Source: Chiloscyllium plagiosum
Taxonomy: Eukaryota
DNA: 64,000 nt
Assembly: GCF_004010195.1 (NCBI RefSeq)
Contig: NC_057753.1
Coordinates: 4,812,887 to 4,876,886, forward strand
Direction of reading: 5' to 3'
Shown here: positions 18,265 to 57,564 of the stretch, in pieces
Layout of the letters: every line of letters begins with the position of its first letter
How positions within the stretch are numbered: the stretch's first letter is position 1
Program-made: the position numbers and the translations under genes
Notes under the pieces: model-generated
Seen by the model: only the letters and a program-made list of their open reading frames with translations
Told to the model about the DNA's origin: nothing
Database searches by the model: none

Positions 18265-18888
18265 ATGGAAGCAAAGAGCACCGCTCAATGCAGAGAGAAA
18301 CCGTACACATGCTCTGTGTGTGGACGAGTCTTTAGCCATTCCTCTGGCCTGTCGAGACACAAGCTCAGTCACACTGGGGAGAAACCGTGGAAATGTGGGG
18401 ACTGTGGGAAGGCATTCACGTCACCCTCTGACCTGGAAAGGCATCGGCGCAGTCACACTGGGGAAAGGCCATTCACCTGTTCTGAATGTTGGAAGGGATT
18501 CAACCAGTTATCCAACCTACTGCAGCACCAGCAGGTTCACACTGACGAGAGACCTTTTGGATGTCCAGACTGCGGGAAGTGCTTTAAAAGATCTTGGGAC
18601 CTCATGTCCCATCAACGTGCTCACACCGACGAGAGACCATTCAGATGCCCTCACTGTGGGACAGGATTCAAGAAGTCGTATAACCTTACCATACACCAAC
18701 GGCTTCACACTGGGGAGAGACCGTTCATCTGCTCAGAGTGTGGGAAGGGATACACTCAATTGTGCAACCTGCAGACACACCAACGAATTCACAGTGGGGT
18801 ACGAGCATTCAGCTGCCCCGAGTGTGGGAAGGGGTTTACTCAGTCAGCCCACCTGCTAAGACACCAGCAAGTTCACAAGAAAATGTGA
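18265..18888 (+). CDS. C2H2 zinc-finger protein, 7 tandem fingers (ZNF gene 1)
   Basis: ORF 18217-18888 has 7 CxxC-x12-HxxxH units with TGEKP/TGERP/TDERP linkers. First ATG at 18265 (aacATGg). Putative acceptor tag|G at 18176/18177. AATAAA near 18993. Confidence 0.92.
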
Positions 18889-19359
18889 TGGAGGGATTTT
18901 GCTGTGAATCACGTCCAAGGTACAGCCATGTTCTTTGCTCATGTAAATAGACCATAGTTTAGTTATATATGTCAATATCCTGGATAAATTCAAATAAAGT
19001 CAGCTTCGTGTGACCCACCTAATGTGTCAAGTCTTGATGATCTGCACCACAGTTAGATCCTTTTGAAAGGGCTGTCTCTCTGCACTGTCTCCTCCAACCT
19101 CACACCTGCTATGACGTCATTCTCAGCTGTCAGTTTGTCCGCCTCCATTGATCCTATTAAACGGCTAATCACACAGAATCCCCACATGCTGTGGTGCGTT
19201 AATGATCCTCTCTCTGGCCCCTTTAAATCTGTCATCCTTAATCCCACTTTGATAAACAAATCCTCCAACACCACCCTCATGCTTGAAACTGCTCTCCAAC
19301 TCCCAACGTCATTTTCGTCTCTAAAGTGCTTCGCTATTTCGAATCCCTCAAGTGTGCAT

Positions 19360-19850
19360 AGATTAGATTAGATTCCCTACAGTGTGGAAACAGGCCCTTC
19401 GGCCCAACGACACCGACCCTCCGAAGAGTAACCCACCCAGACCCATTTCCCTCTGACTAATACGCCTAACACTACGGGCAATTTAGCATGGCCAACTCAC
19501 CCCGACCTGCACATCTTTGGATTGTGGGAGGAAACCGGAGCAACTGGAGGAAACCCACGCAAACATGGGGAGAATGTGCAAACTCCACACAGACAGTCGC
19601 CAGAGGCTGGAATCGAACCTGGGACCCTGGTGCTGTGAGGCAGCAGTGCTAACCACTGAGCCACCATGCCACCCATAAAGGTGCACCAGCCCACCAAAGA
19701 GCATTCCCTCTGGACTATGCACCCCCAAACTATCCCCGTAACCCAACATTTGCCTTGTCTAATCCACCGAACCTGCACATCTTTAGACACAGAATCCACA
19801 CAGACGGTCACCCAAGGCTGAAATTGAACCTGGGCCCCAGGTGCTATGAG
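19360..19850 (-). mobile_element. Two adjacent HE1-type SINEs
   Basis: Reverse complement of the HE1 consensus. Confidence 0.85.
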
Positions 19851-20540
19851 TCAAACGGCACAAAAACAGGCCCTTTGGTCCAACCAGTCCATGCTGACCG
19901 TAATCCCAAAGTGAACTAGTCCCACCTGCCTGCGCTTGGCCCATATTCCTCCTAATCTTTCCTATCCATGTAGATATCTAAATGTCTTGTCAATGTTGTA
20001 ACTGTACCCACATCCACAACTTCCTCTGGAAGTTCACCCCGCATACAAACTACTCTGTGTAAAAAAAATACGCCCCTCATGTCTTTCTAAATGTTTCTCC
20101 TCTCACCTTAAAAATACACCCCCTAGTCTTCAAATCCCCCACCTAGGGAAAGAAAAACACCTACCATTCAACTTAACTACACTTTTCATGAGTTTAGAAA
20201 CCTCTATAAGGTCACCTCTCAACCTCCTACACCCCAGCGAGAGAAGTCCCAGGCTATCCAGCCTCCTCTTATAACTTGAATCTTCCATTCCTGGCAGCAT
20301 GCTTGTAAATCTCTCCTGAATTCTCTCCGGCTTAATAATATCCTTCCTGTAACGGGGCGACCAGAACTGGCCACAGTATTCCAGAGGAGACTTGACCAAT
20401 GTCTTGTACAACCTCAACATAACGTCCTAACTCCTCTACTGAAAGGTCTGAGCAATGAAGGCGAGCGTGCTAAATACCTTCTAAACTTCCCTATCTTTAC
20501 ATGATAGAAACTTCAACGGATTATGTACCTGAACCCCTGG
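19850..20540 (-). mobile_element. CR1-clade LINE 3' fragment
   Basis: Encodes LRLYKTLVKSPLEYCGQFWSPRYRKDI. Confidence 0.85.
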
Positions 20541-21438
20541 CCGCTACACTACGACAGTGCTAACCACTGAGTCACCAGCACTCTTCGTAAATTCTTGCCC
20601 ATTGTTCCCAGTTCGTAATATCTGAACCTCTCCACTGGTATGACCTCATCCTCCTTGATCTCACTGCAGCCTGGGGCAAGGAGAGCCATTCCATTCCACT
20701 TCAATGATTCTCCAGTGTCCTCCAGCTGCATAAAGTCATGGAGGGCTGCAGCACTGAAAAGGACCCTTCAGCCCAGCGAGTCTATATCAGCCAAAATAAA
20801 AAACCACAACTATTCTAATCCCATCTTTCAGCAACAGAGCCATAACCTTGACATCGCACGTGTACATCTAAGTACTACTTAAATGTTATGAGGGTTGCTG
20901 CCTCTACCAACCTTACGGGCAGAGAGTTCCAGATTCCTATCAGCCTCTAGGTGAGCAACAATCTCCCCACACTCCCTCTAAATCTCCTGCTCCTTAACTT
21001 AAATCTATGCCACTTGGTCATCGATTCCTCCGCCAAGGGGGAGGATATGGGCCTCTAGGAGGTAGGACAAAACGAATAAAGGAGCTGCACAAAAGGGCTT
21101 CTGCATTGCTAAATTAGATTGCTCTGAACCAGACAAAAACTAGAAACCGCAGACTGATGTTTCCCCATGCTTACCTGACTACCTATAGTTAAAGCTGTGA
21201 AGAAGCAGATGGATAAGATGAGGAAATGCAAGTCCTCGTAGAGGAATCACTAAACCACACTTTGCAAGTTGTGAATCTTTGAAAAGGTGACATAAACCAA
21301 TATAACGTAACCAATATCATTGGTTCAAGCTTCTACCCATGAGGTGATACCATGTACTGATTGGTTGTAATTATGCCATCATGCTCCATGTCTGATGATG
21401 ATGAATATATCTAAACCTTACGCAAACTCTATAAGGTT

Positions 21439-23150
21439 AACATATAAAGTTAAAAGAGAAAAAGTATAACATAGCTAAGATAAGTGGGAAAACTGAGGAC
21501 TGGGAAGCTTTTAAAGAGCAACAGAGGATTACTAAGAAGGAAATACGCAGAGGAAAAATGAGGTACGAAGGTAAACTGGCCAAGAATATTAAGGAGGATA
21601 GTAAAAGCTTTTTAGGTGCTGGAAACCAGATTCTGGATTAGTGGTGCTGGAAGAGCACAGCAGTTCAGGCAGCATCCAAGGAGCTTCGAAATCGACGTTT
21701 CGGGCAAAAGCCCTTCATCAGGAATAAAGGCAGTNNNNNNNNNNNNNNNNNNNNNNNNNNNNNNNNNNNNNNNNNNNNNNNNNNNNNNNNNNNNNNNNNN
21801 NNNNNNNNNNNNNNNNNNNNNNNNNNNNNNNNNNNNNNNNNNNNNNNNNNNNNNNNNNNNNNNNNNNNNNNNNNNNNNNNNNNNNNNNNNNNNNNNNNNN
21901 NNNNNNNNNNNNNNNNNNNNNNNNNNNNNNNNNNNNNNNNNNNNNNNNNNNNNNNNNNNNNNNNNNNNNNNNNNNNNNNNNNNNNNNNNNNNNNNNNNNN
22001 NNNNNNNNNNNNNNNNNNNNNNNNNNNNNNNNNNNNNNNNNNNNNNNNNNNNNNNNNNNNNNNNNNNNNNNNNNNNNNNNNNNNNNNNNNNNNNNNNNNN
22101 NNNNNNNNNNNNNNNNNNNNNNNNNNNNNNNNNNNNNNNNNNNNNNNNNNNNNNNNNNNNNNNNNNNNNNNNNNNNNNNNNNNNNNNNNNNNNNNNNNNN
22201 NNNNNNNNNNNNNNNNNNNNNNNNNNNNNNNNNNNNNNNNNNNNNNNNNNNNNNNNNNNNNNNNNNNNNNNNNNNNNNNNNNNNNNNNNNNNNNNNNNNN
22301 NNNNNNNNNNNNNNNNNNNNNNNNNNNNNNNNNNNNNNNNNNNNNNNNNNNNNNNNNNNNNNNNNNNNNNNNNNNNNNNNNNNNNNNNNNNNNNNNNNNN
22401 NNNNNNNNNNNNNNNNNNNNNNNNNNNNNNNNNNNNNNNNNNNNNNNNNNNNNNNNNNNNNNNNNNNNNNNNNNNNNNNNNNNNNNNNNNNNNNNNNNNN
22501 NNNNNNNNNNNNNNNNNNNNNNNNNNNNNNNNNNNNNNNNNNNNNNNNNNNNNNNNNNNNNNNNNNNNNNNNNNNNNNNNNNNNNNNNNNNNNNNNNNNN
22601 NNNNNNNNNNNNNNNNNNNNNNNNNNNNNNNTTTGAGAAAAGACATTCTGGCTTTTGAGGGAGTGCAGCGTAGGTTCACGAGGTCAATTCCTGGAATGGC
22701 AGGATTACCTTACACTGAAAGACTGAAGTGACTGGGCTTGTATACCCTTGAGTTTAGAAGACTGAGAGTGGATCTGATTGAGACGTATAAGATTATTAAA
22801 GGATTGGACACTCTGGAGGCAGGAAACATGTTTCCGCTGATGGGTGAGTGCCGAACCAGAGGACACAGCTTAAAAATACGGGGTAGACCATTTAGGACAG
22901 AGCTCAGGAGAAACTTCTTCACCCAGAGAGTGGTGGCTGTGTGGAATGCTCTGCCACAGGGGGCAGTGGAGGCCCACTCTCTGGATTCATTTAAGAAGGA
23001 GTTGGATAGAGCTCTCAAAGATAGTGGAATCAAGGGTTATGGAGATAAGGCAGGAACAGGATACTGATTAGGAATGATCAGCCATGATTATATTGAATGG
23101 CGGTGCAGGCTCGAAGGGCTGAATGGCCTACTCCTGCACCTATTGTCTAT
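21439..23150 (+). mobile_element. CR1-clade LINE fragment (contains a Penelope terminus and an N gap)
   Basis: Encodes LEFRRLRVDLIETYKII...RTRGHSLKI...FFTQRVVAVWNALP. Flanking repeat tctataaggtt (21428, 23146). Confidence 0.85.
21690..21725 (-). ncRNA. Minimal hammerhead ribozyme motif in a Penelope terminus
   Basis: Minus strand reads AUUC-CUGAUGA-A-GGGC-UUUU-GCCC-GAAACGUC-GAUU. Confidence 0.7.
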
Positions 23151-23764
23151 AAGGTTGTTGGATTCTTTTGATTGCCAAGAAGTTTTCATACTTCTGGGCA
23201 AATCAGTCTGCCAACCCAGCGCTGTAACATACAATAAACGATTGTTTGCATGTTGGACAAGGAGTCGTTTACAGGTGTGTTAATTGACCGATCACGGAAC
23301 CGAGTGACCAATAGATCATCAAGGGGAAACGCTTTTTCCTTCCACCTCGTCCATGCTGTTCACAGTTTTATACCTCTCGTCAGGAAGTTGTGAAACTTGA
23401 AAGGGTTCGGGAAAGCTTTGCAAGGATGTTGCCAGGGCTGGAGCTGGAAGGAGAGGCTGACTAGGCTGGGGCTGTTTTCTCTGGAGCGTCGGAGGCTGAG
23501 GGGTGACCTTGCAGAGGTTTATAAAATCGTGAGAAGCATGGATTAGGTAAACAGACAAAAGTCTTTTCCCTGAGGCTGAGTACCTCCCCGAGTGCAATCC
23601 TTCCTTTCAAATATACATATAGTACCTAACTTAAGTTAAAACAGGACAAAAATTGAGTGAGACAGAGGGGTCAAGCTGAATGAATCTGGCAAGTCATTAG
23701 TGCTAGCACTAGGAACAGGTAATCATAAAAGCTGCCTGATTGGTTCAGAAATCTGAGTGGTCTG

Positions 23765-24500
23765 GCCCTGCCCCCTACAAAGATGGCGACCGCGCACACG
23801 TACCGCAGAACACTGTCCCAACAAAGATGGTGGCAGTAGCCAGGCCCAGCGCCGTTTTCCTCATTGGTACCAATGCGGAACCGGGAGTTTCTAATTCAGG
23901 CTGGTGGCCAACATCAAGTATTTATGAAACCTCCCAGCCCTCAGTGGTTCCATCTCTGCTATTTCTACTTAATTACCTTCTCCATTACTTCCCGCACTGC
24001 ATCTGCGATAGAATGTGGCCCGGAAGTTTATTCACGAGCCACAAATATGGTCCCAACCCCCCGGTTCACTCTGATTGGTTGAAGAACCAGCCCAGCCGCA
24101 TCTATTTCCCTCGCAATTGGTTCAGAGCGGCCGTCAATCAACGTGCCTCGTTGTCTGTCATTGCGGGGCGGTCGCGACCGTGCCCATTTCCCCCGTGCTC
24201 ATAGCCCGAAGCTGCCGTCAATCACCGCTCCCCTTTGTTGGCTGTTCGGAGGACCAGCGCCAACCCCGCCCCATCCCCTGTGACTGGCCCAGTGCTGCCG
24301 TCAATCATCGCTCCCCGTTGTGGGTGTTTTAACAGCCCATCCCCGCCCGTTCAGCTGGTATTGGCCTGAAGCTGCCGTCAATCACTACTCCCCATTGTGT
24401 GCGTTGGAGGACCAGTCCCAGTCCCGCCCCTGCCTCCCCCTGCGATTGGTCCATGGCCACCATCAATCAACGCTTCCCATTGTATGTTGGAAAATGCGCG
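23765..24500 (-). promoter_or_regulatory. CpG-rich promoter paralog (orphan) with tandem CCAAT/TGATTGAC array
   Basis: YY1-like AAGATGGCG and AAGATGGTG doublet at 23781-23832. 23905-23940 is an inverted homolog of 15361-15400. Five ~83-bp units follow. Confidence 0.7.
24085..24490. repeat. Degenerate tandem repeat, 5 units of about 77-85 bp
   Basis: cc(g/a)tcaatca recurs at 24131, 24215, 24298, 24375 and 24460. Confidence 0.85.
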
Positions 24501-24889
24501 GGGTTCTGTTTTTATTTGCTGCTGATCACATCCAGGAGTGAGCATTAACGCTGGGTTCGGGAACAAAGTGCATCGCATCCGCTCCCTTCCATGGTTCAGA
24601 CTTCCGAGACACGGGACACAAGTTCCGGCGGGCCTCAATGTCCAGTTTGAGAATTTAAAATGTTTGTCTGATGTTCCCGATTCTCCCAATGTAAGGCAAA
24701 TAAGAACTTGCATTTACAGTACGTATATGAAACGTGACACATGGGTTGGTGGATAGAAAAAGGCCAGAATTGGAGGAGGGCAGGGAGTTCAGAGGGTCAT
24801 GGCCTGCAGGACATTCCGAACACTGACCATCACAAAGTTACTGGCTGTCTCCATGGAGCTCTGAAATGGGACTGTGTAGGTCATGACCA

Positions 24890-25210
24890 CAGATGCTGGA
24901 AACCAGATTCTGGATTAGTGGTGCTGGAAGAGCACAGCGGTTCAGACAGCATCCGAGGAGCTTCGAAATCGACGTTTCGGGCCAAAGCCCTTCATCAGGA
25001 ATAAAGGCAGTGAGCCTGGAGCGTGGAGAGATAAGCTAGAGGAGGGTGGGGTGGGGAGAAAGTAGCATAGAGTACAATGGGTGAGTGGGGGAGGGGATGA
25101 AGATGATAGGTCAGGGAGGACAAGTCATGGTGCTGAGCTGGAAGTTTGGAACTAGGGTGAGGTGGGGGAAGGGGAAATGAGGAAACTGTTGAAGTCCACA
25201 TTGATGCCCA
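24890..25210 (-). mobile_element. Penelope-like 3' terminal fragment
   Basis: Same terminus as 21616-21734 and the reverse complement of 41357-41690. Confidence 0.75.
24967..25002 (-). ncRNA. Minimal hammerhead ribozyme motif
   Basis: AUUC-CUGAUGA-A-GGGC-UUUG-GCCC-GAAACGUC-GAUU. Confidence 0.7.
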
Positions 25211-25289
25211 TGCAGGTGACGCTATCACCTTAAACTAGATGATATTTACAGTCTCCGTGGATTTACAACTGGTAACCTAATATCGTGGT

Positions 25290-29757: not shown

Positions 29758-29959
29758 AGACAGCTGGAGAGGCAGGGTCTTTGTGCATATTTAAGGTTGA
29801 GATCGATAGATTCTTGATCAGTAGGGAAATCAAGGGTTACAGGGAAAAGATAGGAAAGTGGATGTAAAAAATTGCCAGATTGCCTGTTGAATGGCGGAGC
29901 AGGCCCAAGGGTCAGAACAGAACTACTATTGTCTGTATTTCTCATGTCTTATAATTTGC

Positions 29960-30421: not shown

Positions 30422-31357
30422 TTACTTGTGAACTCGCTGATGTTTCCAGAGGTTAGATGACTGAGTGAATCCCTTCCCACACTGGGAGCAGATAAATGGT
30501 CTCTCCCCAGTGTGAATTCGCTGGTGTTTAGTGAGTTGAGAGGATTGCCTGAACCCAGTCCCACAATGGGAGCACCTGAACGGTCTCTCGTCAGTATGAA
30601 CACGTTGATGGGACATCAGTTCCCGGGAACTTTTATAGCACTTCTCACAATCTGAGCATTTAAAAGGTCTCTCATCTGTGTGAACTAATTGGTGTCTCAG
30701 CAGAGTGGACGACTGGCTGAATCCCTTCCCGCACTTGGAGCAGGTGAACGGCCTCTCTCCAGTGTGAATTGGCTGGTGCCTCAGTAGGTCAGATGAATGG
30801 GTGAATCCTTTCCCACACTTGAAGCAGATGAATGGCTTCTCGCCGGAGTGAACACGTCGGTGTTGTAGCAGGTCACCTGTACTCTTAAAGCTTTTGTCAC
30901 AGCAAGAACACTGAAATGGCCTGTTATCAGAGTGAACAAATTGATGCGAATTGAGGCCAGTTAAGCAAGTGAAACCCTTCCCGCACTCAGAGCAGATAAA
31001 CGGTCTCTCGCCAGTGTGAACTCGTAGATGCTCAGTGAGCCTGGATGACTGAGTGAATCCCTTTCCACAGTAAGTGCAGCAGAAGGGCCTCTTTATAGTG
31101 TGAAATCGCTGGTGAGCTAGTAAACCTCCTGCGTTTTCAAAGCTCTTGTCACAATCCGAACATTTACAGATTTGTGTTTCAGCGTGAACCACTTGATGTG
31201 CAGTGAGGTGAAATTCATTCTTGAATCTCTTTCCACACACAGAACAAGGGAATGGCCTCTCCCCAGTGTGACTCTGTCGATGAATCTCAAGCTTGGATGG
31301 GAATCTGAATCGCTTCCCACATTCCACACACTTCCATGGTTTCTCCATGGTGCGCAT
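30422..31357 (-). CDS. C2H2 zinc-finger protein, 11 tandem fingers (ZNF gene 2)
   Basis: 311-aa ORF of 11 canonical fingers with H/C linkers. Putative acceptor ttttcag| gives an exon start near 31714. Start could be 31357 or 31348. Confidence 0.92.
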   Translation of the reverse strand: MRTMEKPWKCVECGKRFRFPSKLEIHRQSHTGERPFPCSVCGKRFKNEFHLTAHQVVHAETQICKCSDCDKSFENAGGLLAHQRFHTIKRPFCCTYCGKGFTQSSRLTEHLRVHTGERPFICSECGKGFTCLTGLNSHQFVHSDNRPFQCSCCDKSFKSTGDLLQHRRVHSGEKPFICFKCGKGFTHSSDLLRHQPIHTGERPFTCSKCGKGFSQSSTLLRHQLVHTDERPFKCSDCEKCYKSSRELMSHQRVHTDERPFRCSHCGTGFRQSSQLTKHQRIHTGERPFICSQCGKGFTQSSNLWKHQRVHK

Positions 31358-32259
31358 GTCCTTGTACCTCTCCAGATTGGATGACTGGTTGAAGCTTCAT
31401 CTACGCAGAAAGGACTTGTATGGTTTCTCTCGGCTTTGTTCCACGGTCGGTGCACTGGAACACACTCTCTCAGTCTGTGCAATTGATTAAAGCTCTTTCC
31501 ACAGTCAGTTCATTGGAACACACTCACTTGTGTGACTGTGTGTCTCATTGTTTTCCCAGACACCGATATTTGAAAAGTTTTTCCTCGGGATAGTTCAGAC
31601 AAACATTTCTCCTTCCACATTCAAAGACCAATGATATTCAGGTCCTGACGAATCAAGATCTTGACCTGATGCTTCTCTAAGTTTCCTGTTTGCAAATCAT
31701 TTCCCGCTAATCCCCTGAAAAAGGACCTGTGAGCATCACTATCAAGTCATGAAAGACATTCAGGGCAGGCAAGACTTGTTCCAATGGAATGATTTTTTTT
31801 TTCCCTCTCGTGTTTTCACTCAAACTGAAGGAATACAAAAGAAGCAACAAACAGAAACACATTCCTAACTGAACCGGAATGTTACTGCCAGCGTCTCTGA
31901 GACAATCTGCTCACTGACGTGCTCACCACTTGGGAAAAGTGTCAAACCGTTCTGCGTGAACTGCGCACGCTCCCTCTCCAGGACAAAGCTGGGCAAGGAC
32001 AGGGCGTGGAGGTCAACACTCTGTCATTGCAGCATAGTGGAGTCTTATTGACGGGCGAGGCAGGCCCGATGAGCTGATCGGCCTGATCCAGCTCTTATTT
32101 CCTCCGTTCAGTCACTGTAAACCCCCCCTCGTCAGTCCTGCTCTTTGGACCTGAAGGAGGTCAAGGAGTGCATCCTCCATCTTCCTCACACATCACCCAG
32201 CCCCTCCCTTTCCACATTGCAGCGTGGGGCTGAAATGTACCTGAGGATGCACAAGCGGC

Positions 32260-32800
32260 TCCTTCAGCTAATTGTTCCAGGGGCTGCCGCCTCTGCCTCG
32301 GGACTGCAGAAGCATCCGCTGCAGCCTGGCACAGCCTGAATCTGCTGGGAGCTCCAAGAAGCCCCGCCCCCTTCCACCCAGGGAGCCCCGCCCACCCGCA
32401 GTGACCTCACCGGGGGAGTCTGCGCGTGCGCCAGACTCCTCTTCTTCCTCTTCCTCCTCCTCCCCCTCAACGGGGTCCAAGATGGCGGCCGCGGGCTCAG
32501 GCCGACCCCAAGCCTCCGGAGGCTGCAAACAACTGCCCTGAAAGTCCCTGACCGTGACTAAGGCATTCCCAAGGCGTTTACGGAACCTTTTCCGTCCCAC
32601 AGCCCGGTTCCAAGCCCGCCCACCAACCAAACGCCCGAGCCGCCAAGCCCTCACCGGCTGCGGAGCGTCCGAAAGGCAACGTCGGTCCCCGTCGTCATCG
32701 GTGGCAGTGCGCATGCGCCACACGCGCCGCGGACAAAAGGGGATTGTCATAACCGCGGGGCATGATGGGTACGGGCCTCTCCTTGCCCACCCTGTGCAGC
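32260..32800 (-). promoter_or_regulatory. CpG island, promoter and first exon of ZNF gene 2
   Basis: CAAGATGGCGGC (YY1) at 32478 and TGCGCATGCGC (NRF1) at 32708. Minus-strand donor CCG|GTGAGG near 32410. GC boxes present. Confidence 0.7.
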
Positions 32801-36300: not shown

Positions 36301-37032
36301 GATAAATGGAAAAGCCCTGGGGAAAATTGATGTGCAGAGAGGTCTGGGTGTTCAGGTCTATTGTACCTCGAAGGTGGAAATGCAGGTCAAAAGAGTGGTC
36401 AAGAAGGCATACTGCACGCTTTCCTTCATCGGACGGGATATTGAGTACAACAGTTGGCAGGTCATGTTGCAGTTGTATAAGACTTTGATTCGGCCGCGTT
36501 TGGAATACTGCGTACAGTGCTGGTCGCCACATTACCAAAAGAACATGGATGCTTTGGACAGAGTACAGAGGAGGTTCACCTGAATGTTGCCTGGTATGGA
36601 GGGCACTAACTATGAAAAGAGGTTGAGTAAAATAGGACTGTTTTCATTAGAAAGATGGAGGTCGAGGGGGACCTGATTAAGGTCTGCAAAATCATGAGAG
36701 GTATAGACAGGACAGATAGCAAGGAGCTTTTCCCAGAGTGGGGGACTCACTTACTAGGGGTCACAAATTCAAGATGAGGAGGGAAAAGTTAAAGGGAGAT
36801 ATGCGTGGAAAGTTCTTTAAGCAGAGGTTGGTGGGTGCCTGGGAAGTGTTGCCAGCAGAGGTGGTAGAGGCTGGCACGATAGCACATTTAAGATGTATCT
36901 AGACAGATACATGAATGGGTAGGGAGCAAAGGGATACAGATCCTTAGAAAATAAGGGACAGGTTTAGATCGAGGACCTGGATTGGTGCAGGCTTGGAGGG
37001 CCAAGGGGCCTGCTCCTGTGTTGTAATTGTCT
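36301..37032 (+). mobile_element. CR1-clade LINE 3' fragment adjacent to a ZNF pseudogene
   Basis: Encodes LQLYKTLIRPRLEYCVQCWSPHY. Flanking repeat tgttcagac (36292, 37033). Confidence 0.85.
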
Positions 37033-37041
37033 TTGTTCAGA

Positions 37042-37530
37042 CATCAAACGTGCTGATACGAGAGTGCGTTCGCATCGGACAGAGACCGCTTCGGTGCTGT
37101 AACTGCGGGACAGAGTTTAAGCAAAAATATGACATCGCTGTACACGAGTGAATTGACAGTGGGGGGAGGTTGTTCTCCTGCTTGGAGTGTGGGAAAGATT
37201 TCACTCTGATGGTCCAACCTGCTCAGTCACCAGCAAGTTCAGACAACTGAGAGACCTTTCAAATGTCCAGAATGTGGGAATGGCTAGTAAAAGGTCTTGG
37301 AAACTGAAGTTCCACGAACGTGTTCCTGCTGACGAGAGATGTTTCTGGTGCTCTGACCATGGGGCTGGGTTCTGGTTGTCATCCCAGCTCACAGTCCACC
37401 AGTGAATTCAAACTGGGCACAGACACACACCCTGCTGCGAGGGAGGGAAGGGATTCACTCCAGTCAGCCAATCTGTGGACACACCAGCGCACAGACAAAT
37501 AACTGAAGGGACTGGACTTTGCTGTAAATC
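37042..37530 (+). pseudogene. C2H2 ZNF pseudogene (about 5 decayed fingers)
   Basis: Fragments include RPLRCCNCGTEFKQ, FSCLECGKDF, SNLLSHQQVQTTERPFKCPECG and SQLTVHQ*, with stops and frameshifts. A ZNF-type 3'UTR start follows. Confidence 0.85.
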
Positions 37531-39539: not shown

Positions 39540-39990
39540 ACAATAGACTTGACTGACTGACGGCATCTCTACCAATAGGAGGACGGGGCTAGCGTTGGAG
39601 GACGCAGGGGGGTGGTCCCCGAGGAAGGGGGTGGGGCCGGAGAACCGCGCATGTGCAGTTGGCCCTCCCAATCCATCCGCGTGAATGAGTGGCGGATCAT
39701 CCCATCCCCCCAAACACGTAACCAGCATTTCGCACAGGAACAGTGTCGCAGCGGTTGTGTGCGAGGTTTGTGGGGCGAACGCAAACGCGGAGGAAAAGAA
39801 GCGTAGACAGAAGCATCGTAAACATTTGGCGGAGTCCTACCTAGCATCAGGGGCAGAAGGCCGCAGGCCCGCGTTGCTGTCGCCATCTTTGTTGGAGGCA
39901 ACACACGGACGCGCGGCCGCCATGTTTGTTGGGGGCGTGGAGCAGCGGGGCGCATGCGCACGCGCACCGCTGCGTTGGTGAGCCTGGTGG
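39540..39990 (+). promoter_or_regulatory. CpG island, promoter and first exon of ZNF gene 3
   Basis: TGACTGACGG and CCAAT at 39554-39576. YY1 doublet CGCCATCTTTGTTGG / CGCCATGTTTGTTGG at 39881-39933. GCGCATGCGCA at 39950. Donor at 39978. Confidence 0.72.
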
Positions 39991-40096: not shown

Positions 40097-40199
40097 CATA
40101 TTAATGCGAAGGATTTGCAAGCAGGAAACGTCACATCAGGACAAGACAGTCACTTGATTCATCAGGATTCCGACTATCCTTTGTGGAAGGAAAAGAAAA
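40097..40199 (+). other. Putative 5'UTR exon 2 of gene 3 (leader copy)
   Basis: Acceptor cttttacag| at 40096, then aggatttgcaagcaggaaac...cacatcagga...attcatcagga, with donor-like gttagt at 40200. Upstream donor ttg|gtgagc at 39978. Confidence 0.55.
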
Positions 40200-41690: not shown

Positions 41691-41733
41691 CTATCACTTT
41701 GAAAGAACAATCCTGTTTAGACCCACATTACAG

Positions 41734-41970
41734 GGAATTAGAAATGCAGGATTTCGAACTTTGGGAACTTAAATCAAACATCACAACAAGAACTGACTCA
41801 GACGTTTATATCATGGGGGTCTGAATAGCTTCAGAATTGAACATGGAAGTCAAAAACACCATTTACAGGGAGGAGAATATATACACAGGTCCTGGGTGTG
41901 GATGAGGCTTCATCTGTCCTACACGTGTGCAGACACTAATCTGAGAAGCCAGGGAAATGTGGGAATGAGC
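41734..41970 (+). pseudogene. Decayed duplicate of the ZNF coding-exon 5' end upstream of gene 3
   Basis: cag| acceptor, leader module, then ttgaacATGgaagtcaaaaac (matches 42244-42264) and [20 protein letters not shown]. Confidence 0.75.
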
Positions 41971-42249
41971 CCCCTTTGGGCTCAAAACGTACCTGTTTTT
42001 ATGACAATCCAGCAGCTTTCACGGTCACTATTTTCCTTAATGCCAGCCCCACCAATTTCGAGATTCATTCAGCTCAGTTTCACAACCTGTTTTTGTCTTT
42101 TAGTTGGTTCTGTTCTCACTCCCTTTTTTTTCTGTTTTACATCCATTTCACAGGGTCTGGGTCGATCGACAATTTTGCAGTTGGGAAATACAAACCAAGC
42201 ATCACCTCAGGAACTGACAATATATTGTAACTATTATCAGACTTTGAAC

Positions 42250-42891
42250 ATGGAAGTTAAAAATGCTGCTGACAGAGGGAAGAAGCAGCACATATGTTCT
42301 GCGTGTGGGCGAACCTTCAGCCGATTATATTATCTGTCAAAACACCATTGCAGTCAGACTGGGGAGAAACCGTGGAAATGTGAGGAATGTGGGAAGGGAT
42401 TCGTTTCCCCATCGAAGCTGGAAACTCATCGACGCACTCACTCTGGGGAGAAGCCGTTCATCTGCTCTGAGTGTGGGAAGGGATTCGCACAGTCATCCAC
42501 CCTGCAGACACACCAGCGAGTCCACACTGGCGAGAAACCTTTCACGTGCCCAGATTGTGGCAAGTGCTTCAAAGGCTCTGGGGAGCTGATATCCCATCAA
42601 CGTGTTCACACTGATCGAAGACCCTTCCAGTGTCCTGAGTGTGGGAAGTGCTATAAACGTTCGGGGAACCTGATGTCACATCAGCGTGTTCACACCAATG
42701 AGAGGCCGTTCCGGTGCCCTCGCTGTGGGAGAGGGTTCAGGCGATCGTCTTATCTCACTTTGCACCAGCGAGTTCACACCGGGGAGAGACCGTTCACCTG
42801 CTCAGTGTGTGGGAAGGGATTCTCTCAGTCCTCCCAACTGCTCTCACACTGGCAAGTACACGCTAAGGAGAAACAATCCATTTGCTCTTAG
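42250..42891 (+). CDS. C2H2 zinc-finger protein, 6 canonical fingers plus 1 degenerate (ZNF gene 3)
   Basis: Distal part of ORF 41896-42891. ATG at 42250 (aacATGg) aligns with the starts of genes 1 and 4. Pyrimidine tract and cag| acceptor at 42153. Confidence 0.9.
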
Positions 42892-48372: not shown

Positions 48373-49086
48373 ACTATGTTCAGTAAAACATAGTGGGTCT
48401 GAGGGCCCGTTCCTGCGCTGTGCTGTTCTGTGTCCCATGTAAAAGGTGCTTTCGTCACACAGTGGTAGCGTGCATCCTGGGTTCAAATCCCACCTGCTTC
48501 AGCGGAATGTCATGACATGTCTGAGCAGGTTGATTGAATAAAGATCAAAAACGTTTTAAAAATCTGCTTGCTACTGTTTCAAATGGCTATGATTGTAACG
48601 GTATCAGTTCTAACTTTGCAAAAATTCTCTCGAAATTGGAGAAGTGCTGTCAGACTGAAAAATCACACCTGCAACACCTCTGCTCACGAAAGGAGGAGAC
48701 AGAAAGCAGGAAATCAGTCGGTCCATCACCCGATAGAGGGAATATGCTGGAATCTTTTATTAGGGATATCAAAGCAGGTAAGTTTGTGAATCCTGCTGAA
48801 ATTCTGCAGAGCTTAGATTGTCTTGTGAAAGGGAAATAATATTTGATTAATTTATCAGAAAGTTTTCAGGAAGGAGCAGGTGATGTTGACCAAAGGAGCC
48901 TGGTTATCGAGTGTAATGCAGGCAGAGGCGATCATGGAGGTATTGGATATGTGGACGACAGGGGTCCTGGAGATGTGGTGCCTATCGTATGTTTTGGGGA
49001 TCTTATAATTTAAATTCAAATCTGAATATTAATTTGTTAATGTGGGACTTTAACCAATGAGGGAACAAGAGATAGTCTAGTGCAAT

Positions 49087-51740: not shown

Positions 51741-51744
51741 CGAA

Positions 51745-52190
51745 GTGTGAGATGCTGGAAAAGCACAGCCGGTCAAGCAGCATCCGAAAAGCAGGAGAAT
51801 CAATGTTTCAGGCATAAGTCCTTCATCAGGAATGAGGCTTGTGGCCAAAGGAAGTGGGAAGATAAATGGGAGGGGGATGGGGCTGGGGAGACGGTAGCTG
51901 AGAGGGCAATAGGTAGATGGAGGTGGGGGTAATGGTGATAGGTTGGAGAGGAGGGTGAAGCGGATAGATGGGAAGGAAGATGGACAGGTAGGACAGTTCA
52001 AGAGGGTGGTGCATGGGATCAATGTGGATTTCACCAGTTTCCTCATTTTCCCTTCCCCACACCTTATCCTAGATCCAACCTTCCAACTTGACAAGGTGGA
52101 GGGTCCCAAGGCGGAAGATGAGGTGTTCTTCCTTCAGACATCAAGTGGCGGAGTGGGAGGGGGAGTTCAAGTATTCGGCCACAGGGCAGT
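51745..52190. mobile_element. Penelope-like terminal fragments in mixed orientation
   Basis: gctggaaaagcacagc...ccttcatcaggaatg plus gggatcaatgtggatttcaccagtttcctc. Confidence 0.65.
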
Positions 52191-53019
52191 GGTTGCAGTT
52201 TTTCGGTGTGGCACGTCGGCACTGGCAATTAATGAGTTGAGCACTGTATCCTTCAAAATAGTTATCTGTATTTGTAATATTTTCCTTACTGTCCATCACC
52301 TTGATAAATTATGATCTCTCTACCTGAATTAGTTCGTGCAGTTTTGGATGACTGATTACTTTGTTCAGACCCTTGGCATGCCACTCTTATGCTTACCATG
52401 TTATCCCAGTCAGGTAAAAACTGAAAGAACTGCAGACGCCGTAAATGAGGAGCAGGGGCAGGGGGTCGCTGGGTTGTGGGTGGGAGGGAGGGGAAGCGGG
52501 GGCAGCTCTGTGGGTCTGATGGCATCTATGAGGGAAAAATCAAAGTTAACGCTTGAGGTCTGGTGATCCTTCCCTCTGGTTTTTCTGCACAGAAGCTGTC
52601 GGACCTGCTGAGCTTTTCCAGCAGCTTCTGTTTTCGTTGCATTGTATTTATTTGCAGTTATTTGATTTGTCTCCAGCACCAGCTTAATTTTAATTTTTTT
52701 TTGGGGGGGGGGCATTATGTCTGTGCCTCACCTAATGGGATTGTAGGGTCGTCCTTTCGGTTGCTATTCAGCTGTTGACACACCTCACTCGCACCAGCTA
52801 ACCCCCTTGGGTCACCTGCAGAGACTTATTATTCCACACTCTGCTCACAACCATTTAATGCCTGATCTTTTTTGATCTGTCTGCCCATAAATTCTGCTCT
52901 CTCTGTGTGCTTCTCCCTCTCACTTTCACCGCTCGGAAAGCTTGTGATTTCAAATAAACAGGTTGCACCCTGCAGCCTGGTGTCCTGTTTGACGTCTGAC
53001 CTGACCCAGCACCTCCACA

Positions 53020-53420
53020 CGTCTCGTCTGCAAAGCCCGGCTGCCCCGCAGGAGTCCCGCCTGAGCCCCCAACAAAGATGGCGGCGAGGCCCTCATCCGT
53101 TCGTCCCCGGCCAACCGCGGGACGGGGGAAGTTTCTCCATTCGGGCCTGACACCGTGCACCCGATACTCACGAACCCCCCTCCCCCCGCCACAGGCGCTG
53201 CCACCTTTCCGCGGCTGTCTGCTGTCGCTGCCCCTTTAACCCCTACACCCTCTAACGCCACACTTCAGGCAGTGCGGCTGCGCGGTTCCCGCTGGGCGGG
53301 GCGAGGCATTCGTCACGTTCCCGGTCCCGCCCCCACCTTCGCTTGGATTGGTTGGAGCGAAAGACCACCCACCTCCTCCTATTGGACGTAGGATGCCGTC
53401 AATCAACCGGCTCCCAGCGT
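53020..53420 (-). promoter_or_regulatory. CpG-rich promoter paralog (orphan)
   Basis: CCCCCAACAAAGATGGCGGCG at 53066, GC boxes, and ATTGG-N10-CCGTCAATCA at 53381-53405, in the same orientation as the 24-kb island. Confidence 0.68.
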
Positions 53421-55015
53421 GAGCTGGACATTTCGCTTTTATGAATGGGGTGCAGCAGCAAGAACGTTCCACTGAGTCTCTACAAATCTCATGCTCATCC
53501 CGAGCATCAGGAAAGATGTCAAGGAGGGACAGGAGAAACTGCCGAGAGACCAACTCTCACTTCACGTAAGGAAGTTAAAAATAACATCAAATCCCAGGTT
53601 ATAATCCGACATCTTTATCTGGAAGCACTAGCTGTTGGGAGTTCTGCTCCTTCAGCAGGTGATAAGGGGAAGGAGACTTTGTTTGCTAAGTCCACCCTCC
53701 CAGCAACTCCATCCTGCGATAATGGAGTTGCAATCCTACGTAAAACGAAGAACTGCAGGTGCTGGAGTCTGGAACAGAAACTGATGGCAAAACTAAGCAG
53801 TGTAGTTATATAGAGAGTCATACAGTATGGAAACAGACCCATTCGGTCCAACTCGTCCCTGCTGACCAGATATCTTAAACTGATCTAATCACATTTGCCA
53901 GGATCTGGCCCACATCCCTCTAAACCCTTCCTATTCGTATCCCCATCCAGCTGCCTCTTACATGTCATAATTGTACCAGCCTCCACCACTTCTTCTGGCA
54001 GCTCGCTCCATATATGTACCACCCTCTACCTGAAAAAGTTGCCCCATAGTTTTAAATCTGTCCTCTCTCGCCTTAAACCTACTTAGCCTATCCATGCCCC
54101 TCATGATTTTACAAATCTCTAAAAGATCACCCCTCAGCTTCCGAGGCTGCAGGGAAAAGAGCCCCAGCCTATTCAGCCTCTCCCTATAAGTCAAACCTTC
54201 CACACCTGGCAATATCCTTGAAAAATCTTTTCTGAACCCTTTCAAGTTTAACACTTTTCCCATAACACGGAGACCAGTAGTGGACAAAGTTAGAAATCAC
54301 ACAACACCAGGTTAGAGTCCAACAGGTTTACAAACTTGACTTTTAACTTTGTCCACCCTAGTCCAACATCTGCACCTCTGTGGAGAGATAGTAGAGTTAA
54401 CAATTCGAGTTAGGCGAGTCTATCAGAACTGCTAACCAATCTTACCAATTAATCCACTTCAATTTATCTGTGACAGGGAAATACGATTGTTCTTCTTCAC
54501 TTTGTATTTACTCAAAATTATCAGATCTTTAATTGGAACGATCAGATGATTTTGTCCTCTATGGAGCTTGATTTTCGAGGATTGCAAAATTTTCACTTTT
54601 CTCTGTCGATCTTATTCAGAAAAGCTGCAAGGGTTGGGAGTCAGAGTTTCACAGCATGCAAAAGAGGCCCTTCAGCCCATCACGTCTGCACCAAACGATG
54701 GGAGAGATAACACAGCATTTGTGTGGCAAAGTTCAGTGACATGTGATCACTTACCAGTGGACGTGAGACATATAACTCAAATAGTGATAGCCACTGTAAG
54801 TGTACAGGACGGAAACAGACCCTTTGGTCAAACCCGTCCATGCTGACCAGATATCCCAACCCAATGTAGTCCCACCTGCCAGCACCCAGCCCATATCCCT
54901 CCAAACCCTTCCTATTCATATACCCATCCAAATGCCTTTTAAGTGTTGGTGATCACTTACCAGTGGACGTAAGACATATAACTCAAATAGTGATAGCCAC
55001 TGTAAGTGACCCTAT

Positions 55016-55712
55016 AGAGTCATAGATATGTACAGGACGGAAACAGACCCTTTGGTCCAACCCGTCCATGCCGACCAGATATCCCAACCCAAACTAGTCC
55101 CACCTGCCAGCACCCAGCCCGTATCCCTCCAAACCCTTCCTATTCATATACCCATCCAGTGTTGCAATTGCACCAGCCTCCACCACTTCCTCTGGCAGCT
55201 CAATCCATACACGCACCACTCTCTGTGTGAGAAAGTTGTCCCATACGTCTCTTTTATATCTTTCCCCTCTCATCCTAAACCTATGCCCTCTAGTTCTGGA
55301 CTCCCCGACCCCAGGGAAAAGACTTTGCCTATTTACCCTATTCATGTCCCTCATAATTTTGTAAACCTTTATAAGGTCACTCCTCAGCCTCCGACACTCC
55401 AGGGAAAACAGCCCGAGCCTGTTCAGCCTCTCCCTATAGCTCAAATCCTTCAACCCGGGCAACATCCCTGTAAATCTTTTCTGAACCTTTTTAAATTTCA
55501 CAACATCTTTCTGATAGGAAGGAGACCAGAATTGCACGCAATATTCCAAAAGTGGCCTAACCAATATCCTGTACAGCCGCAACATGACCTCCCAACTCCT
55601 GTACTCAATAGTCTGACCAAGAAAGGAAAGCATACCAAACGCCTTCTTCATTATCCTATCTACCTACCTGTGACTCCACTTTCAAGGAGCTATGAACCTG
55701 CACTCCAAGGTC
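55016..55712 (-). mobile_element. Young CR1/HER1-like LINE 3' fragment
   Basis: An uninterrupted 185-aa ORF2 C-terminus (55094-55651) and tail ctatgactcta. Confidence 0.9.
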
Positions 55713-55844
55713 TCAATAAGAAAGGAACCAAGATGGAGCAGACCCACCCAGCTGGAGAGGTACAGAAGGGGATCATGTATCTACTGAACCTCTCTCACAC
55801 ATCCTGTTTTCTGATTTCCGGCATCTTCAGTTTATCGCTTCAAT

Positions 55845-56075
55845 AAAAAGCTGGTCCCTGTGATACTGACGTTGTCATTGTAACTCACCAGTCCCGCTAA
55901 TGGTCTTTAAGAAAAGGGATCTGTTGTCCTGGTATATATGTGACTCCAAAATCACCCTGATGTGGCTGACTCTTAACAGTAAAACAGCGGAGCTAGCTGA
56001 TATGTTTAAGGTTAATTAGGGTGGGACAACAGATGTTGAAGTTGCCAGTTACGCACACGTTCCTGAAAGAATACT
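55845..56075 (+). mobile_element. Decayed DeuSINE (SacSINE1-like) 3' part
   Basis: ctaatggtctttaagaaaagggatctg...atgtgactcca...atgtggctgactcttaac...attagggtgggacaa resembles the Deu-domain and tail layout as recalled, without an alignment. Confidence 0.45.
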
Positions 56076-56133
56076 GAAAACAAAGGGTTGACTTTATGGA
56101 GGAGGGGTTGGTGACGGCAAGTGATTTGTACTG

Positions 56134-56425
56134 GGCAGCACAGTGCCTAGCACTGCACCCTCACAGTGCCAAGGACCTGGATTTGATTCTAACATTGGGC
56201 GACTGTCTGTGCAGAGTTCGCACGTTCTCCCCGTGACTGCGTGGATTTTCTGCACCGCTTTCCCCTCACAGTCCACAGATGTTCAGGTTGGGTTGGATTG
56301 GCTATTCAAAATGCAGGATTATCGATCAAGAGTTGGGGAGGGCTGGGTTTGGGTGGGATTTACTTCGGAGGGTCGGCGCAAAACTTGAATGGCCAGTTGG
56401 CCTCTTTCCTCACTGTCGAGAGTCT
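56134..56425 (+). mobile_element. Diverged HE1-type SINE
   Basis: HE1 consensus. Confidence 0.8.
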
Positions 56426-56778
56426 AAAACTAAACAAAAAAACCTTGTCTTTTGGTGCAAACCTCCTAGCAGGGAGGTTTTATTCCAAAGCATATCATGT
56501 GACTCACTTCTTAAAGAGACACCATCCACCATAACTTGCACCAACTATAACACTTAACCGTAATCATGAATCCCTTCACAGGGAATGAACCTGTATTTGA
56601 AGATAATCAGAGGATTCAACAGTATGTGTTGACGCAAAATTGATTTATTTGACTTTTATCTGGAATACTAACACCTACAACTGGGCTGGAGCTTATCAAC
56701 GTCAGCAATAAACAGATCCCAATGGATGTGGTGTAGTAGCCCTGGCTGTGACAAAACCGCAGTATGTAATCACTGTTG

Positions 56779-57564
56779 TTATTTGTGAACGCGCTTATGC
56801 CCAAGAAGGTGGGATGACCGAGTGAATCCCTTCCCGCACTCCGAGCAGGTGAATGGCCTCTCACCGGTGTGAGCACGTTGGTGGACAGTGAGCTGAGATG
56901 AGTGCTTGAACCCAGTCCCGCAGTGGGAGCACCTGAACGGTCTCTCATTCGTGTGGACGCGTTGATGGGACATCAGTTCCCCGGAGCTTTTATAGCCCTT
57001 CCCACAGTCTGGGCACTGAAAAGGTCTCTCATCGGTGTGAACGCGCCGGTGTCTCAGTAAGTTGGACGACTGAGTGAAGCCCTTCCCGCACTCAGGGCAG
57101 GCGAACAGCCTCTCCCCGGTGTGAAGTCGTTGGTGTATCAGGAGGGTGGACGACTGAGTGAATCTCTTCCCACAGTCAGAACAAGTGAATGGCCTCTCCC
57201 CGGTGTGAATGGTCTGGTGTCTCAGCAAGATGGATAACCGGGTGAATTCCTTCCCACACTCAGAGCAGGGGAACGGTCTCTCTCCGGTGTGAACGCGCTG
57301 GTGCCTCAGCAGGGTGGAAGACTGAGTAAATCCCTTGCCACACTCCGAGCAGGTGAAGGGCCTCTCCCCAGTATGACTGCGCCGGTGAGTTTCCAGCTCA
57401 GAAGGGGATTTGAATCCTTTCCCACAGTTCCCGCATTTCCACGGTTTCTCCACCATGTCACTGCGCTGATGTCTCAACAGGCCAGATGACCGGCTGAAGC
57501 CTCGTCCACACACAGAACAGACGTACGGTTTCTCCCCGCTGTGAATGGCGCTTTCTCCTTCCAT
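56779..57564 (-). CDS. C2H2 zinc-finger protein, 8 canonical fingers plus 1 degenerate (ZNF gene 4)
   Basis: Distal part of ORF 56779-57837 starting [14 protein letters not shown] at 57564. Acceptor near 57670-57674. AATAAA on the minus strand near 56644-56649. Confidence 0.92.

What the first reader, a model, noticed from the sequence alone, without database searches (positions are those of the whole stretch)
18265..57564. KRAB-less shark ZNF array with invariant signature fingers bracketing a variable core
Seen: all four proteins have the finger EKPWKCxxCGKxFxxPSxLExHRxSH (Trp linker, Pro just before the recognition helix) at or near the N-terminus. All four also have the pair CxDC(G/E)KxxKxSx(D/E/N)LMSHQRxHT(D/N)ERPFRCx(H/R)CG(T/R)GF near the C-terminus, while the number and helix residues of the other fingers vary (7, 11, 7, 9 total). 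The decayed pseudogenes at 8.8 and 37 kb retain the pair. No effector-domain exon is visible. Established: tetrapod KRAB-ZNF clusters turn over rapidly against transposons, and KRAB-ZNF expansion is a sarcopterygian feature. Inference: this is an independent chondrichthyan tandem-ZNF system in which the fixed fingers may act as a cofactor or dimerisation module instead of a separate domain.
Basis: partly seen in the sequence, partly recalled or inferred. Interest (0 to 1): 0.75.

Follow-up and report, generated by a model that had tools for sequence, protein, structure and literature searches.

The report
Shark zinc-finger family, fixed first finger
These four shark genes belong to a shark-and-ray family of DNA-binding zinc-finger proteins that lack the usual silencing domain but nearly always begin with the same unusual finger, which may do that domain's job of recruiting partner proteins.

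Summary
Four intact C2H2 genes (7, 11, 7, 9 fingers) and several remnants are present as described. The fingers are not invariant: in both signatures the base-contact residues (-1, +2, +3, +6) vary, and only the scaffold is conserved. The two signatures differ in weight. The Trp/Pro(+1)/Glu(+5) 'W finger' is ancient. It occurs in 32 of 349 shark and ray fingers versus 0 of 1214 others, is always first or second in its array (36 of 36), and has an acidic helix unlike a base reader. The C-terminal pair marks only a subfamily (7 of 44 arrays, 4 from this window) and sits mid-array elsewhere, so 'bracketing' is local. The paralogs are old (dS 0.64-0.98) and under purifying selection, but scaffold constraint on W is no stronger than on ordinary fingers. 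No effector exon was found. Two genes have in-frame stops after the shared predicted splice acceptor, and 0 of 136 upstream open stretches hit KRAB, SCAN, BTB or SET. RNA could not be checked. New: a ~35-residue leader shared across elasmobranchs (UTR-like here) and a shared promoter motif. Best guess: the W finger is a partner-docking module (about 40%, untested).

The parts
18265..18888 (+). Gene A coding sequence, 207 aa, finger order F0-W-g-M-T-g-g (F0 = outermost finger, g = ordinary finger)
18376..18456 (+). W finger of A
18544..18708 (+). M-T finger pair of A
18177..18264 (+). Leader of A from the predicted acceptor to the ATG; 88 nt, with an in-frame TGA at 18211-18213, so 5' UTR
   Evidence: splice site predicted from sequence
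15100..15560 (+). CpG island, predicted promoter and first exon of A, with the shared motif at 15532-15550
   Evidence: inference
30422..31348 (-). Gene B coding sequence, 308 aa (alternative Met at 31357), W-ggggggg-M-T-g; the protein starts with the W finger
31268..31348 (-). W finger of B
30512..30676 (-). M-T finger pair of B
31349..31714 (-). 5' UTR of B within the finger exon: leader plus decayed fingers, several in-frame stops
32400..32760 (-). CpG island, predicted promoter and first exon of B (only the short GCCATCTT core of the shared motif, at 32486)
   Evidence: inference
42250..42891 (+). Gene C coding sequence, 213 aa, F0(degenerate)-W-g-(M-like)-M-T-g
42361..42441 (+). W finger of C
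42613..42777 (+). M-T finger pair of C
42154..42249 (+). Leader of C; 96 nt, open but in a different phase from A and D
41711..41965 (+). Decayed tandem copy of leader, F0 and the start of W upstream of C
40097..40199 (+). Predicted second exon of C, a decayed duplicate of the leader
   Evidence: inference
39550..39977 (+). CpG island, predicted promoter and first exon of C; shared motif twice (39881, 39918); donor after 39977
   Evidence: inference
56779..57564 (-). Gene D coding sequence, 261 aa from the conserved Met, F0(degenerate)-W-gggg-M-T-g
57373..57453 (-). W finger of D
56869..57033 (-). M-T finger pair of D
57565..57670 (-). Leader of D; 106 nt, open and in frame (35 codons), predicted disordered; the one gene where an N-terminal extension in the ancestral phase remains possible
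62921..63030 (-). Predicted second exon of D, a decayed duplicate of the leader
   Evidence: inference
63141..63600 (-). CpG island, predicted promoter and first exon of D; shared motif twice (63182-63200, 63228-63246); donor after 63141
   Evidence: inference
8784..9237 (+). Pseudogene remnant g-M-(truncated T)-g-T-g; part is duplicated inverted at 7807-8015
37008..37501 (+). Pseudogene remnant (T-like)-g-M-T-g, frameshifted
2556..3040 (+). Pseudogene remnant with F0, a W remnant and one ordinary finger; part is duplicated inverted at 4118-4433
23770..24450 (-). Orphan CpG island with the shared promoter motif (23770-23788) and a leader remnant at 23663-23571; no finger exon seen
53000..53450 (-). 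Orphan CpG island with the shared promoter motif (53065-53083); no finger exon seen

Best explanation
These are members of an old, birth-and-death family of elasmobranch tandem C2H2 transcription factors. Each gene has a CpG-island promoter with a shared motif, one or two short 5' exons with no conserved coding content, and one exon holding the whole finger array (structure inferred from sequence). The proteins carry no separate effector domain. The ordinary fingers and the M-T pair read DNA and diversify at base-contact residues; the pair is just the inherited marker of this local subfamily (shown: variation; inferred: DNA reading; about 75%). The W finger is a fixed N-terminal module kept across sharks and rays (shown; about 90%). 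Most likely it does not read bases but offers an outward helix face (Pro +1, Glu +5, Arg +8) to dock one common chromatin partner, playing the part that KRAB or FiNZ plays in other lineages (inferred; about 40%). That the targets are transposons and the output is repression is by analogy only (about 50%).
For: W class: 32 of 349 fingers in 27 chondrichthyan proteins versus 0 of 1214 in 139 others. Found in nine named genera, including Amblyraja, Hemitrygon and Mobula. First or second in its array in 36 of 36 cases. One clade of 36 of 36 tips, support 0.95, in a tree of 158 fingers. A search with the finger-free leader alone gave an independent sample: 9 of 10 new hits that reach the W position have a W or W-derived finger, 6 by the strict rule. 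Contact-site entropy is 1.55 bits versus 2.43 +/- 0.14 for matched ordinary fingers (0 of 2000 draws as low). Arg/Gln at -1 is 0 of 36 versus 54%; helix net charge is -1.2 versus +0.6. The outermost finger F0 decays or is lost (B, C, D and many homologs) while W keeps its zinc ligands. No effector exon: in-frame stops after the shared acceptor in A and B, acceptor-to-ATG distances 88, 366, 96 and 106 nt in unequal phases, 0 of 136 upstream open stretches hit an effector family. Precedents: the N-terminal finger of CLAMP binds MSL2 through helix positions +5, +8 and +9, with +1 affecting the two-hybrid result (10.1101/2022.02.16.480628, section read). Kipferl finger 4 binds the Rhino HP1 chromodomain (PMC11245307, passages).
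Against: Among the four window genes the W scaffold is no more constrained (dN/dS 0.21) than position-matched ordinary fingers (0.17-0.19), and its contact sites vary (dN/dS 0.62; four different residue sets). The class was defined by W, P and E, so their frequencies and the tree are partly circular. Searches searched with the W region, so the 32 of 44 arrays with W is inflated. 20 of 36 W fingers come from one genus, although the contrast persists without it (1.59 versus 1.91 and 2.10). Some family members have lost W (P0169). No partner, DNA target or transcript was observed.
Confidence: 0.45

Rival explanations
1. The W finger is a DNA-contacting finger with a shared job (reading a common triplet or methylated base, or anchoring the array), and the family needs no dedicated effector, acting by occupancy or through partners that bind ordinary fingers.
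For: W folds as a canonical finger (pLDDT about 87-95) and is joined to the next finger by a canonical linker. Its contact sites are fairly conserved across species (Tyr -1 67%, Thr/Ile +6 86%, Glu/Lys/Gln +3). A ray and a shark share an 8-finger orthologue at 90% identity that includes this finger.
Against: Acidic helix, no Arg/Gln at -1 in 36 of 36. The class-specific residues sit mainly off the base-contact face. The window's four copies differ at -1, +3 and +6.
Confidence: 0.25
2. Edge effect: fingers at the end of a tandem array escape the unequal crossing-over that homogenises the core, so W, M and T are distinctive by descent, with selection only for the fold.
For: Scaffold dN/dS of W equals that of ordinary fingers. 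M and T behave as subfamily markers (7 of 44 arrays). Leader, intron end and some 3' UTRs are still alignable between paralogs, so slow change preserves a lot.
Against: The true edge finger F0 decays while W stays intact. Pro +1 is kept with three different codons and Glu +5 with two across the four genes at dS 0.64-0.98. The same residues persist in skates and rays.
Confidence: 0.15
3. The effector is the ~35-residue acidic/Ser-Thr leader in front of the fingers, a FiNZ-like short motif encoded inside the finger exon.
For: A finger-free leader profile found 25 proteins at E<=0.001 among 1.84 billion. Four were already known here, 2 are repetitive false hits, and all 16 of the 18 looked up that carry a name are elasmobranch. 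In some members the downstream Met is absent (both units of P0143; P0169, P0173), so the leader must be translated there. It has no Pfam match.
Against: In the window the leader has in-frame stops (A, B), frameshifts, and equal mismatch rates at the three codon positions (64/190, 61/188, 60/193). Other species' models show frameshifts in it too (P0032, P0167, P0168). It is predicted disordered (pLDDT 45-53). The search could only find in-frame copies.
Confidence: 0.1
4. One reading: W and the M-T pair together form an invariant bracket acting as a cofactor or dimerisation module.
For: All four window genes have both. M and T have the lowest scaffold dN/dS in the window (0.10-0.11) and keep class-specific residues (Met +5; Thr in place of the usual Lys). 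M occurs in rays as well.
Against: The adjacent pair is in 7 of 44 arrays, 4 of them from this window. In the 3 Heterodontus arrays six fingers follow it. Contact sites of T vary at dN/dS about 1.
Confidence: 0.08
5. An effector exon exists but was missed (too diverged for Pfam, in an assembly gap, or joined through another acceptor).
For: No transcript could be examined. D is open through its acceptor. A 235-nt gap lies in the predicted first intron of A. Stretches under 36 codons were not scanned (136 of 524 scanned).
Against: In-frame stops in A and B. N-termini of other species' models upstream of the leader are unrelated to each other, and some are translated promoter or LINE sequence.
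Confidence: 0.07

Closest known systems
KRAB zinc-finger proteins (sarcopterygians)
   Same: Clustered tandem C2H2 genes, finger array in one exon, turnover with pseudogenes, variable base-contact residues, TE-rich surroundings.
   Different: No KRAB domain or exon; upstream exons appear non-coding; TRIM28 is reported absent in fish (PMC10380595, passage; the sentence concerns fish and names teleosts, not sharks).
FiNZ-ZNF family of cyprinids (Wells et al. 2023, PMC10547256)
   Same: Lineage-restricted KRAB-less expansion defined by a shared N-terminal element.
   Different: FiNZ is a 28-aa acidic peptide on its own exon. Here the constant element is a finger; the acidic leader lies inside the finger exon and is often disabled.
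Protein-binding C2H2 fingers: CLAMP finger 1 (binds MSL2) and Kipferl finger 4 (binds the Rhino HP1 chromodomain)
   Same: A canonical finger within an array, with an atypical helix in CLAMP, that recruits a chromatin complex; the CLAMP surface (+5, +8, +9, +1) matches where W-specific residues lie.
   Different: Single genes in flies, no sequence relationship tested or expected; binding by W is untested.
Tandem CWCH2 motif (Zic/Gli; PMC2837044)
   Same: A conserved Trp in N-terminal fingers.
   Different: There the Trp lies between the two cysteines in two adjacent fingers. Here it replaces the usual Phe/Tyr before the first cysteine, in one finger.

Membership tests
Classical tandem C2H2-ZNF | At least five C2H2 fingers joined by TGE(K/R)P-type linkers | tested here: met
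KRAB-ZNF | KRAB domain (PF01352) N-terminal to the fingers | tested here: not met
   0 of 4 ORFs, 0 of 136 upstream open stretches of 36 codons or more, 0 of 26 elasmobranch tandem-ZNF hits
KRAB-ZNF | Upstream coding exon spliced in frame onto the finger exon | tested here: inconclusive
   Excluded at the shared predicted acceptor for A and B by in-frame stops; open for C and D; no transcript seen
SCAN-, BTB-, SET/PR- or ZAD-ZNF | The respective Pfam domain | tested here: not met
   the only PR-domain hit, P0002, has no W finger
FiNZ-ZNF | 28-aa FiNZ peptide on a separate exon, cyprinid range | tested here: inconclusive
   No FiNZ profile was at hand. No conserved coding exon upstream, and no named leader hit outside elasmobranchs
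TE-silencing ZNF systems (works-like claim) | Positive selection at base-contact residues | tested here: inconclusive
   Contact dN/dS 0.25-1.05 versus scaffold 0.10-0.21 among four old paralogs; too few and too distant to show dN/dS above 1
TE-silencing ZNF systems (works-like claim) | Binding to TEs and corepressor recruitment | not testable with these tools
   needs ChIP/CUT&RUN and pull-downs
Tandem CWCH2 motif | Trp between the two cysteines in two adjacent fingers | tested here: not met
   The Trp is two residues before the first Cys, in one finger; definition from the PMC2837044 abstract
Dimerising zinc fingers | Self-association through the finger | not tested
   needs a biochemical assay

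The most novel reading that the evidence does not exclude
Sharks and rays built their large ZNF repertoire (703-3586 tandem-ZNF ORFs per genome in the seven elasmobranch rows seen in Wells et al.'s table) around a repurposed zinc finger rather than an added domain. The W finger would be the universal corepressor-docking module, a KRAB equivalent made from a finger, so that single-exon duplications yield ready-made TE repressors driven from a shared promoter element.
Probability: 0.3. Interest if true: 0.85.

Novelty: new variant of a known kind. Interest (0 to 1): 0.6.

Why it matters
Cartilaginous fishes have as many tandem-ZNF genes as tetrapods, yet KRAB-box families are reported missing from them (PMC8455134, passage), and my nine literature searches found no description of what defines their family or how it acts. 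The W finger, the leader and the promoter motif give three markers for delimiting that family genome-wide, and one concrete bait for finding its cofactor. If W docks a corepressor, it is a further independent solution to ZNF-guided silencing in vertebrates, beside KRAB and FiNZ, and it shows that an effector can hide inside the finger array where domain annotation cannot see it.

Tried and rejected
Recent duplication only: rejected (dS 0.64-0.98; W shared with skates and rays). Invariant recognition helices: rejected. C-terminal pair as a family-wide bracket: rejected. Tandem CWCH2: rejected. An ATG lies 56 nt before the predicted first donor in both C and D. It is a variant of the promoter motif and is absent in A and at the 23.8 and 53.1 kb islands, so I did not read it as a conserved coding exon. 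No whole genome was held, so no genome-wide census. Sequencing-run search: no RNA holder listed among 19 holders; no reads were laid, so expression and splicing remain open. Homodimer prediction for F0-W-next finger with zinc: no verdict, score 0.00; no evidence either way. Metagenome scan with a degenerate W-finger pattern: 0 matches. PDB search with a W-finger profile: 260 matches, the 60 shown being general C2H2 proteins ranked by finger number, none singled out. ESM Atlas: general ZNF clusters for leader plus fingers; the leader alone scored 0.82 at best, below the useful range. Rfam: 0 matches. Earlier scan findings: none by sequence or words. Absence of W from chimaeras and bony vertebrates is not shown: no chimaera protein was retrieved, and the word-indexed searches missed known members (P0074 and P0116 were absent).
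Full report
1. The observation. Six-frame translation shows four intact C2H2 arrays: A (+, 18265-18888), B (-, 31348-30422), C (+, 42250-42891) and D (-, 57564-56779), with 7, 11, 7 and 9 fingers. I call the Trp-containing finger W, the two fingers of the pair M and T, the outermost finger F0 and ordinary fingers g. The orders are F0-W-g-M-T-g-g, W-g7-M-T-g, F0-W-g-g-M-T-g and F0-W-g4-M-T-g. Remnants lie at 2.6-3.0, 4.1-4.4, 7.8-8.0, 8.8-9.2, 13.4, 37.0-37.5 and 41.7-42.0 kb. Those at 8.8 and 37 kb keep frameshifted M-then-T traces, not the literal motif. About 38% of the non-ZNF window is multi-copy within the window, with reverse-transcriptase and GIY-YIG fragments.

2. Not invariant, not recent. 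Over W+M+T, pairwise dS between the four genes is 0.64-0.98 (about 51-56 synonymous sites per pair, Nei-Gojobori, so noisy), and overall dN/dS is 0.16-0.30. The genes are therefore old paralogs under purifying selection. Split by site, scaffold dN/dS is 0.21 (W), 0.11 (M) and 0.10 (T), against 0.17-0.19 for three sets of position-matched ordinary fingers. At base-contact sites (-1, +2, +3, +6) it is 0.62, 0.43 and 1.05, against 0.25-0.74. The signature fingers are thus conserved on the scaffold and variable where bases are read, and W is not more constrained than its neighbours within this window.

3. Relatives. Three protein searches returned 166 listed proteins, 27 of them chondrichthyan; the best identities over F0+W are 61-73% for the closest shark proteins. 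A finger with at least two of Trp, Pro +1 and Glu +5 occurs in 32 of 349 chondrichthyan fingers and 0 of 1214 fingers from the other 139 proteins. I then dropped the PR-domain protein P0002, added the four window genes, and split long, evidently fused gene models at gaps over 40 residues. W is first or second in its run in 36 of 36 cases. Of 44 runs of three or more fingers, 32 hold W, 12 hold M and 7 hold adjacent M-T, four of them from this window; in the three Heterodontus runs six fingers follow the pair. Two further models break off at the start of T (P0032, P0122), so the pair is somewhat undercounted. W spans nine named genera of sharks, skates and rays. A Mobula and a Stegostoma protein are 90% identical over 226 residues and carry the same finger with Tyr in place of Trp, a possible conserved founder type. 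Biases: two searches used the W region as query, the class is defined by three of its own residues, and 20 of 36 W fingers are from Heterodontus. The finger-free leader search (section 5) gives an independent sample: 9 of the 10 new hits that reach the W position have a W or W-derived finger.

4. What is special about W. Across species its contact sites are less variable than those of ordinary fingers (1.55 bits versus 2.43 +/- 0.14, 0 of 2000 matched draws as low; 2.08 and 2.64 for the next two fingers). It never has Arg or Gln at -1 (ordinary 54%), has Arg/Lys at +6 in 3% (40%), and its helix is acidic (-1.2 versus +0.6). Beyond the defining residues it prefers Arg at +8 (25 of 36 versus 18 of 314) and Ser at +10. 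F0, the real edge of the array, often loses zinc ligands or is turned into UTR, as in B, whereas W stays intact. AlphaFold2 gives W a canonical fold. M is neutral in charge, and T has Arg/Gln at -1 in 8 of 10, like a base reader.

5. Gene structure and the missing effector. The four genes share a homologous predicted acceptor (first exon base 18177, 31714, 42154, 57670), 88, 366, 96 and 106 nt before the ATG. A and B have in-frame stops in that stretch, and the phases differ. Each gene has a CpG island 1-6 kb upstream. A 19-base motif with a GCCATCTT core occurs 7 times, all in such islands, versus 0.04 expected in shuffles; the pattern was drawn from the window, so the figure is post hoc. That the core resembles a YY1 site is recalled, not tested. 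C and D have a predicted second exon that is a decayed copy of the leader. Of 524 stop-to-stop stretches on the sense strand upstream of the genes, the 136 of at least 36 codons were scanned against Pfam: one weak hit (DUF282, below cut-off), no effector family. The leader itself is conserved at the peptide level. A 41-position finger-free profile found 25 proteins among 1.84 billion: 4 already retrieved, 1 more (P0133) already retrieved but not in the profile, 2 repetitive false hits, and 18 looked up, of which 16 are named elasmobranch proteins and 2 unnamed. What lies upstream of the leader in those models is heterogeneous, sometimes the translated promoter motif. In the window the leader shows stops, frameshifts and no codon-position bias (0.34, 0.32, 0.31), and it is predicted disordered. 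I read it as mostly 5' UTR here, but translated in members that lack the downstream Met. All exon assignments are inferred; no transcript was seen.

6. Mechanism. Shown: an old elasmobranch family, one coding exon, a fixed first finger with an atypical helix, and variable contact residues elsewhere. Inferred: the ordinary and M-T fingers give each paralog its DNA target, and W docks a common partner through its outward helix face. Precedents exist for such fingers. In CLAMP the MSL2-binding residues map to helix positions +5, +8, +9 and +12, and a +1 mutation affected two-hybrid binding (10.1101/2022.02.16.480628; abstract and one results section read). Kipferl's fourth finger binds the Rhino chromodomain (PMC11245307; passages). 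These are analogies. I put about 40% on partner docking by W, 25% on a shared DNA contact, 15% on an edge effect, 10% on the leader as effector, and under 10% each on the full bracket model and on a missed exon.

7. What is known. Wells et al. 2023 (PMC10547256; passages, the first third of Results, and a supplement search in which files 3-5 were not searched) never mention sharks in the main text. Their table lists tandem-ZNF ORF counts of 3586 (Scyliorhinus canicula), 1851 (Carcharodon), 1223 (Amblyraja), 1179 (S. torazame), 1165 (Rhincodon), 1106 and 703 (two Chiloscyllium) and 475 (Callorhinchus). So the expansion is on record as a number. The unsearched files could hold more on shark ZNFs. 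The whale shark paper reports KRAB-box families missing from cartilaginous fishes (PMC8455134; passages). PMC11603059 (passages) finds only PRDM9 in Rhincodon and proposes TRIM33 as partner of KRAB-like and FiNZ proteins in ray-finned fish. PMC10380595 (passages) and PMC2837044 (abstract) were also consulted. Nine searches (listings only unless named above) found no description of the W finger, the leader or the promoter motif; subscription papers are outside this library.

8. Verdict. The bracket idea and the word 'invariant' do not hold. It is a new variant of a known kind of system, with an untested but testable mechanism. Interest 0.6.

Noticed in passing
window 15532, 23770, 39881, 39918, 53065, 63182, 63228: A 19-base motif with a GCCATCTT core and a G-run recurs in CpG islands upstream of A, C and D and in two orphan islands (7 hits versus 0.04 expected). 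Its translation also appears in Pristiophorus and Heterodontus gene models (P0170, P0181), suggesting a family-wide promoter element.
   Followed up: partly
window 23770-24450 (-) and 53000-53450 (-): Two promoter-like CpG islands with the family motif but no finger exon downstream. The first points towards an 897-base assembly gap (21735-22631) and carries a 77-base tandem repeat of 2.8 copies at 24204-24430.
   Followed up: no
window 40097-40199 (+), 41711-41877 (+), 62921-63030 (-), 5361-5455 (+), 23571-23663 (-): Extra copies of the leader, two with splice donors. Other sharks' models show the same leader-exon-then-finger-exon doubling (P0167, P0168) or stand-alone leader exons (P0175, P0178, P0184).
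   Followed up: partly
P0074 (Mobula) and P0116 (Stegostoma): An 8-finger orthologue 90% identical between a ray and a shark, with Tyr in place of the Trp; a candidate slow-evolving founder of the family.
   Followed up: partly
window 2556-2871 / 4118-4433 and 7807-8015 / 9078-9292: Two inverted duplications (98% and 93% identical) that each copy part of a ZNF pseudogene.
   Followed up: no
window 15973-16545 (-): GIY-YIG endonuclease fragment (Pfam PF01541, just above cut-off) in the predicted first intron of A, likely a Penelope-type element (label recalled).
   Followed up: partly
window 61603-62280 (+) and many shorter copies: Decayed reverse-transcriptase (LINE) fragments and a short interspersed repeat make up most of the multi-copy DNA.
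   Followed up: no
Heterodontus proteins P0128-P0131, P0133-P0135, P0137-P0141: Long 'ZNF850/721/91-like' database models appear to be fusions of neighbouring single-exon genes joined by translated repeats, so public annotation of this family is unreliable.
   Followed up: partly
window 42529-42609 (+): Gene C has a second, M-like finger directly before M; it groups with the M clade, showing that signature fingers can themselves duplicate.
   Followed up: partly
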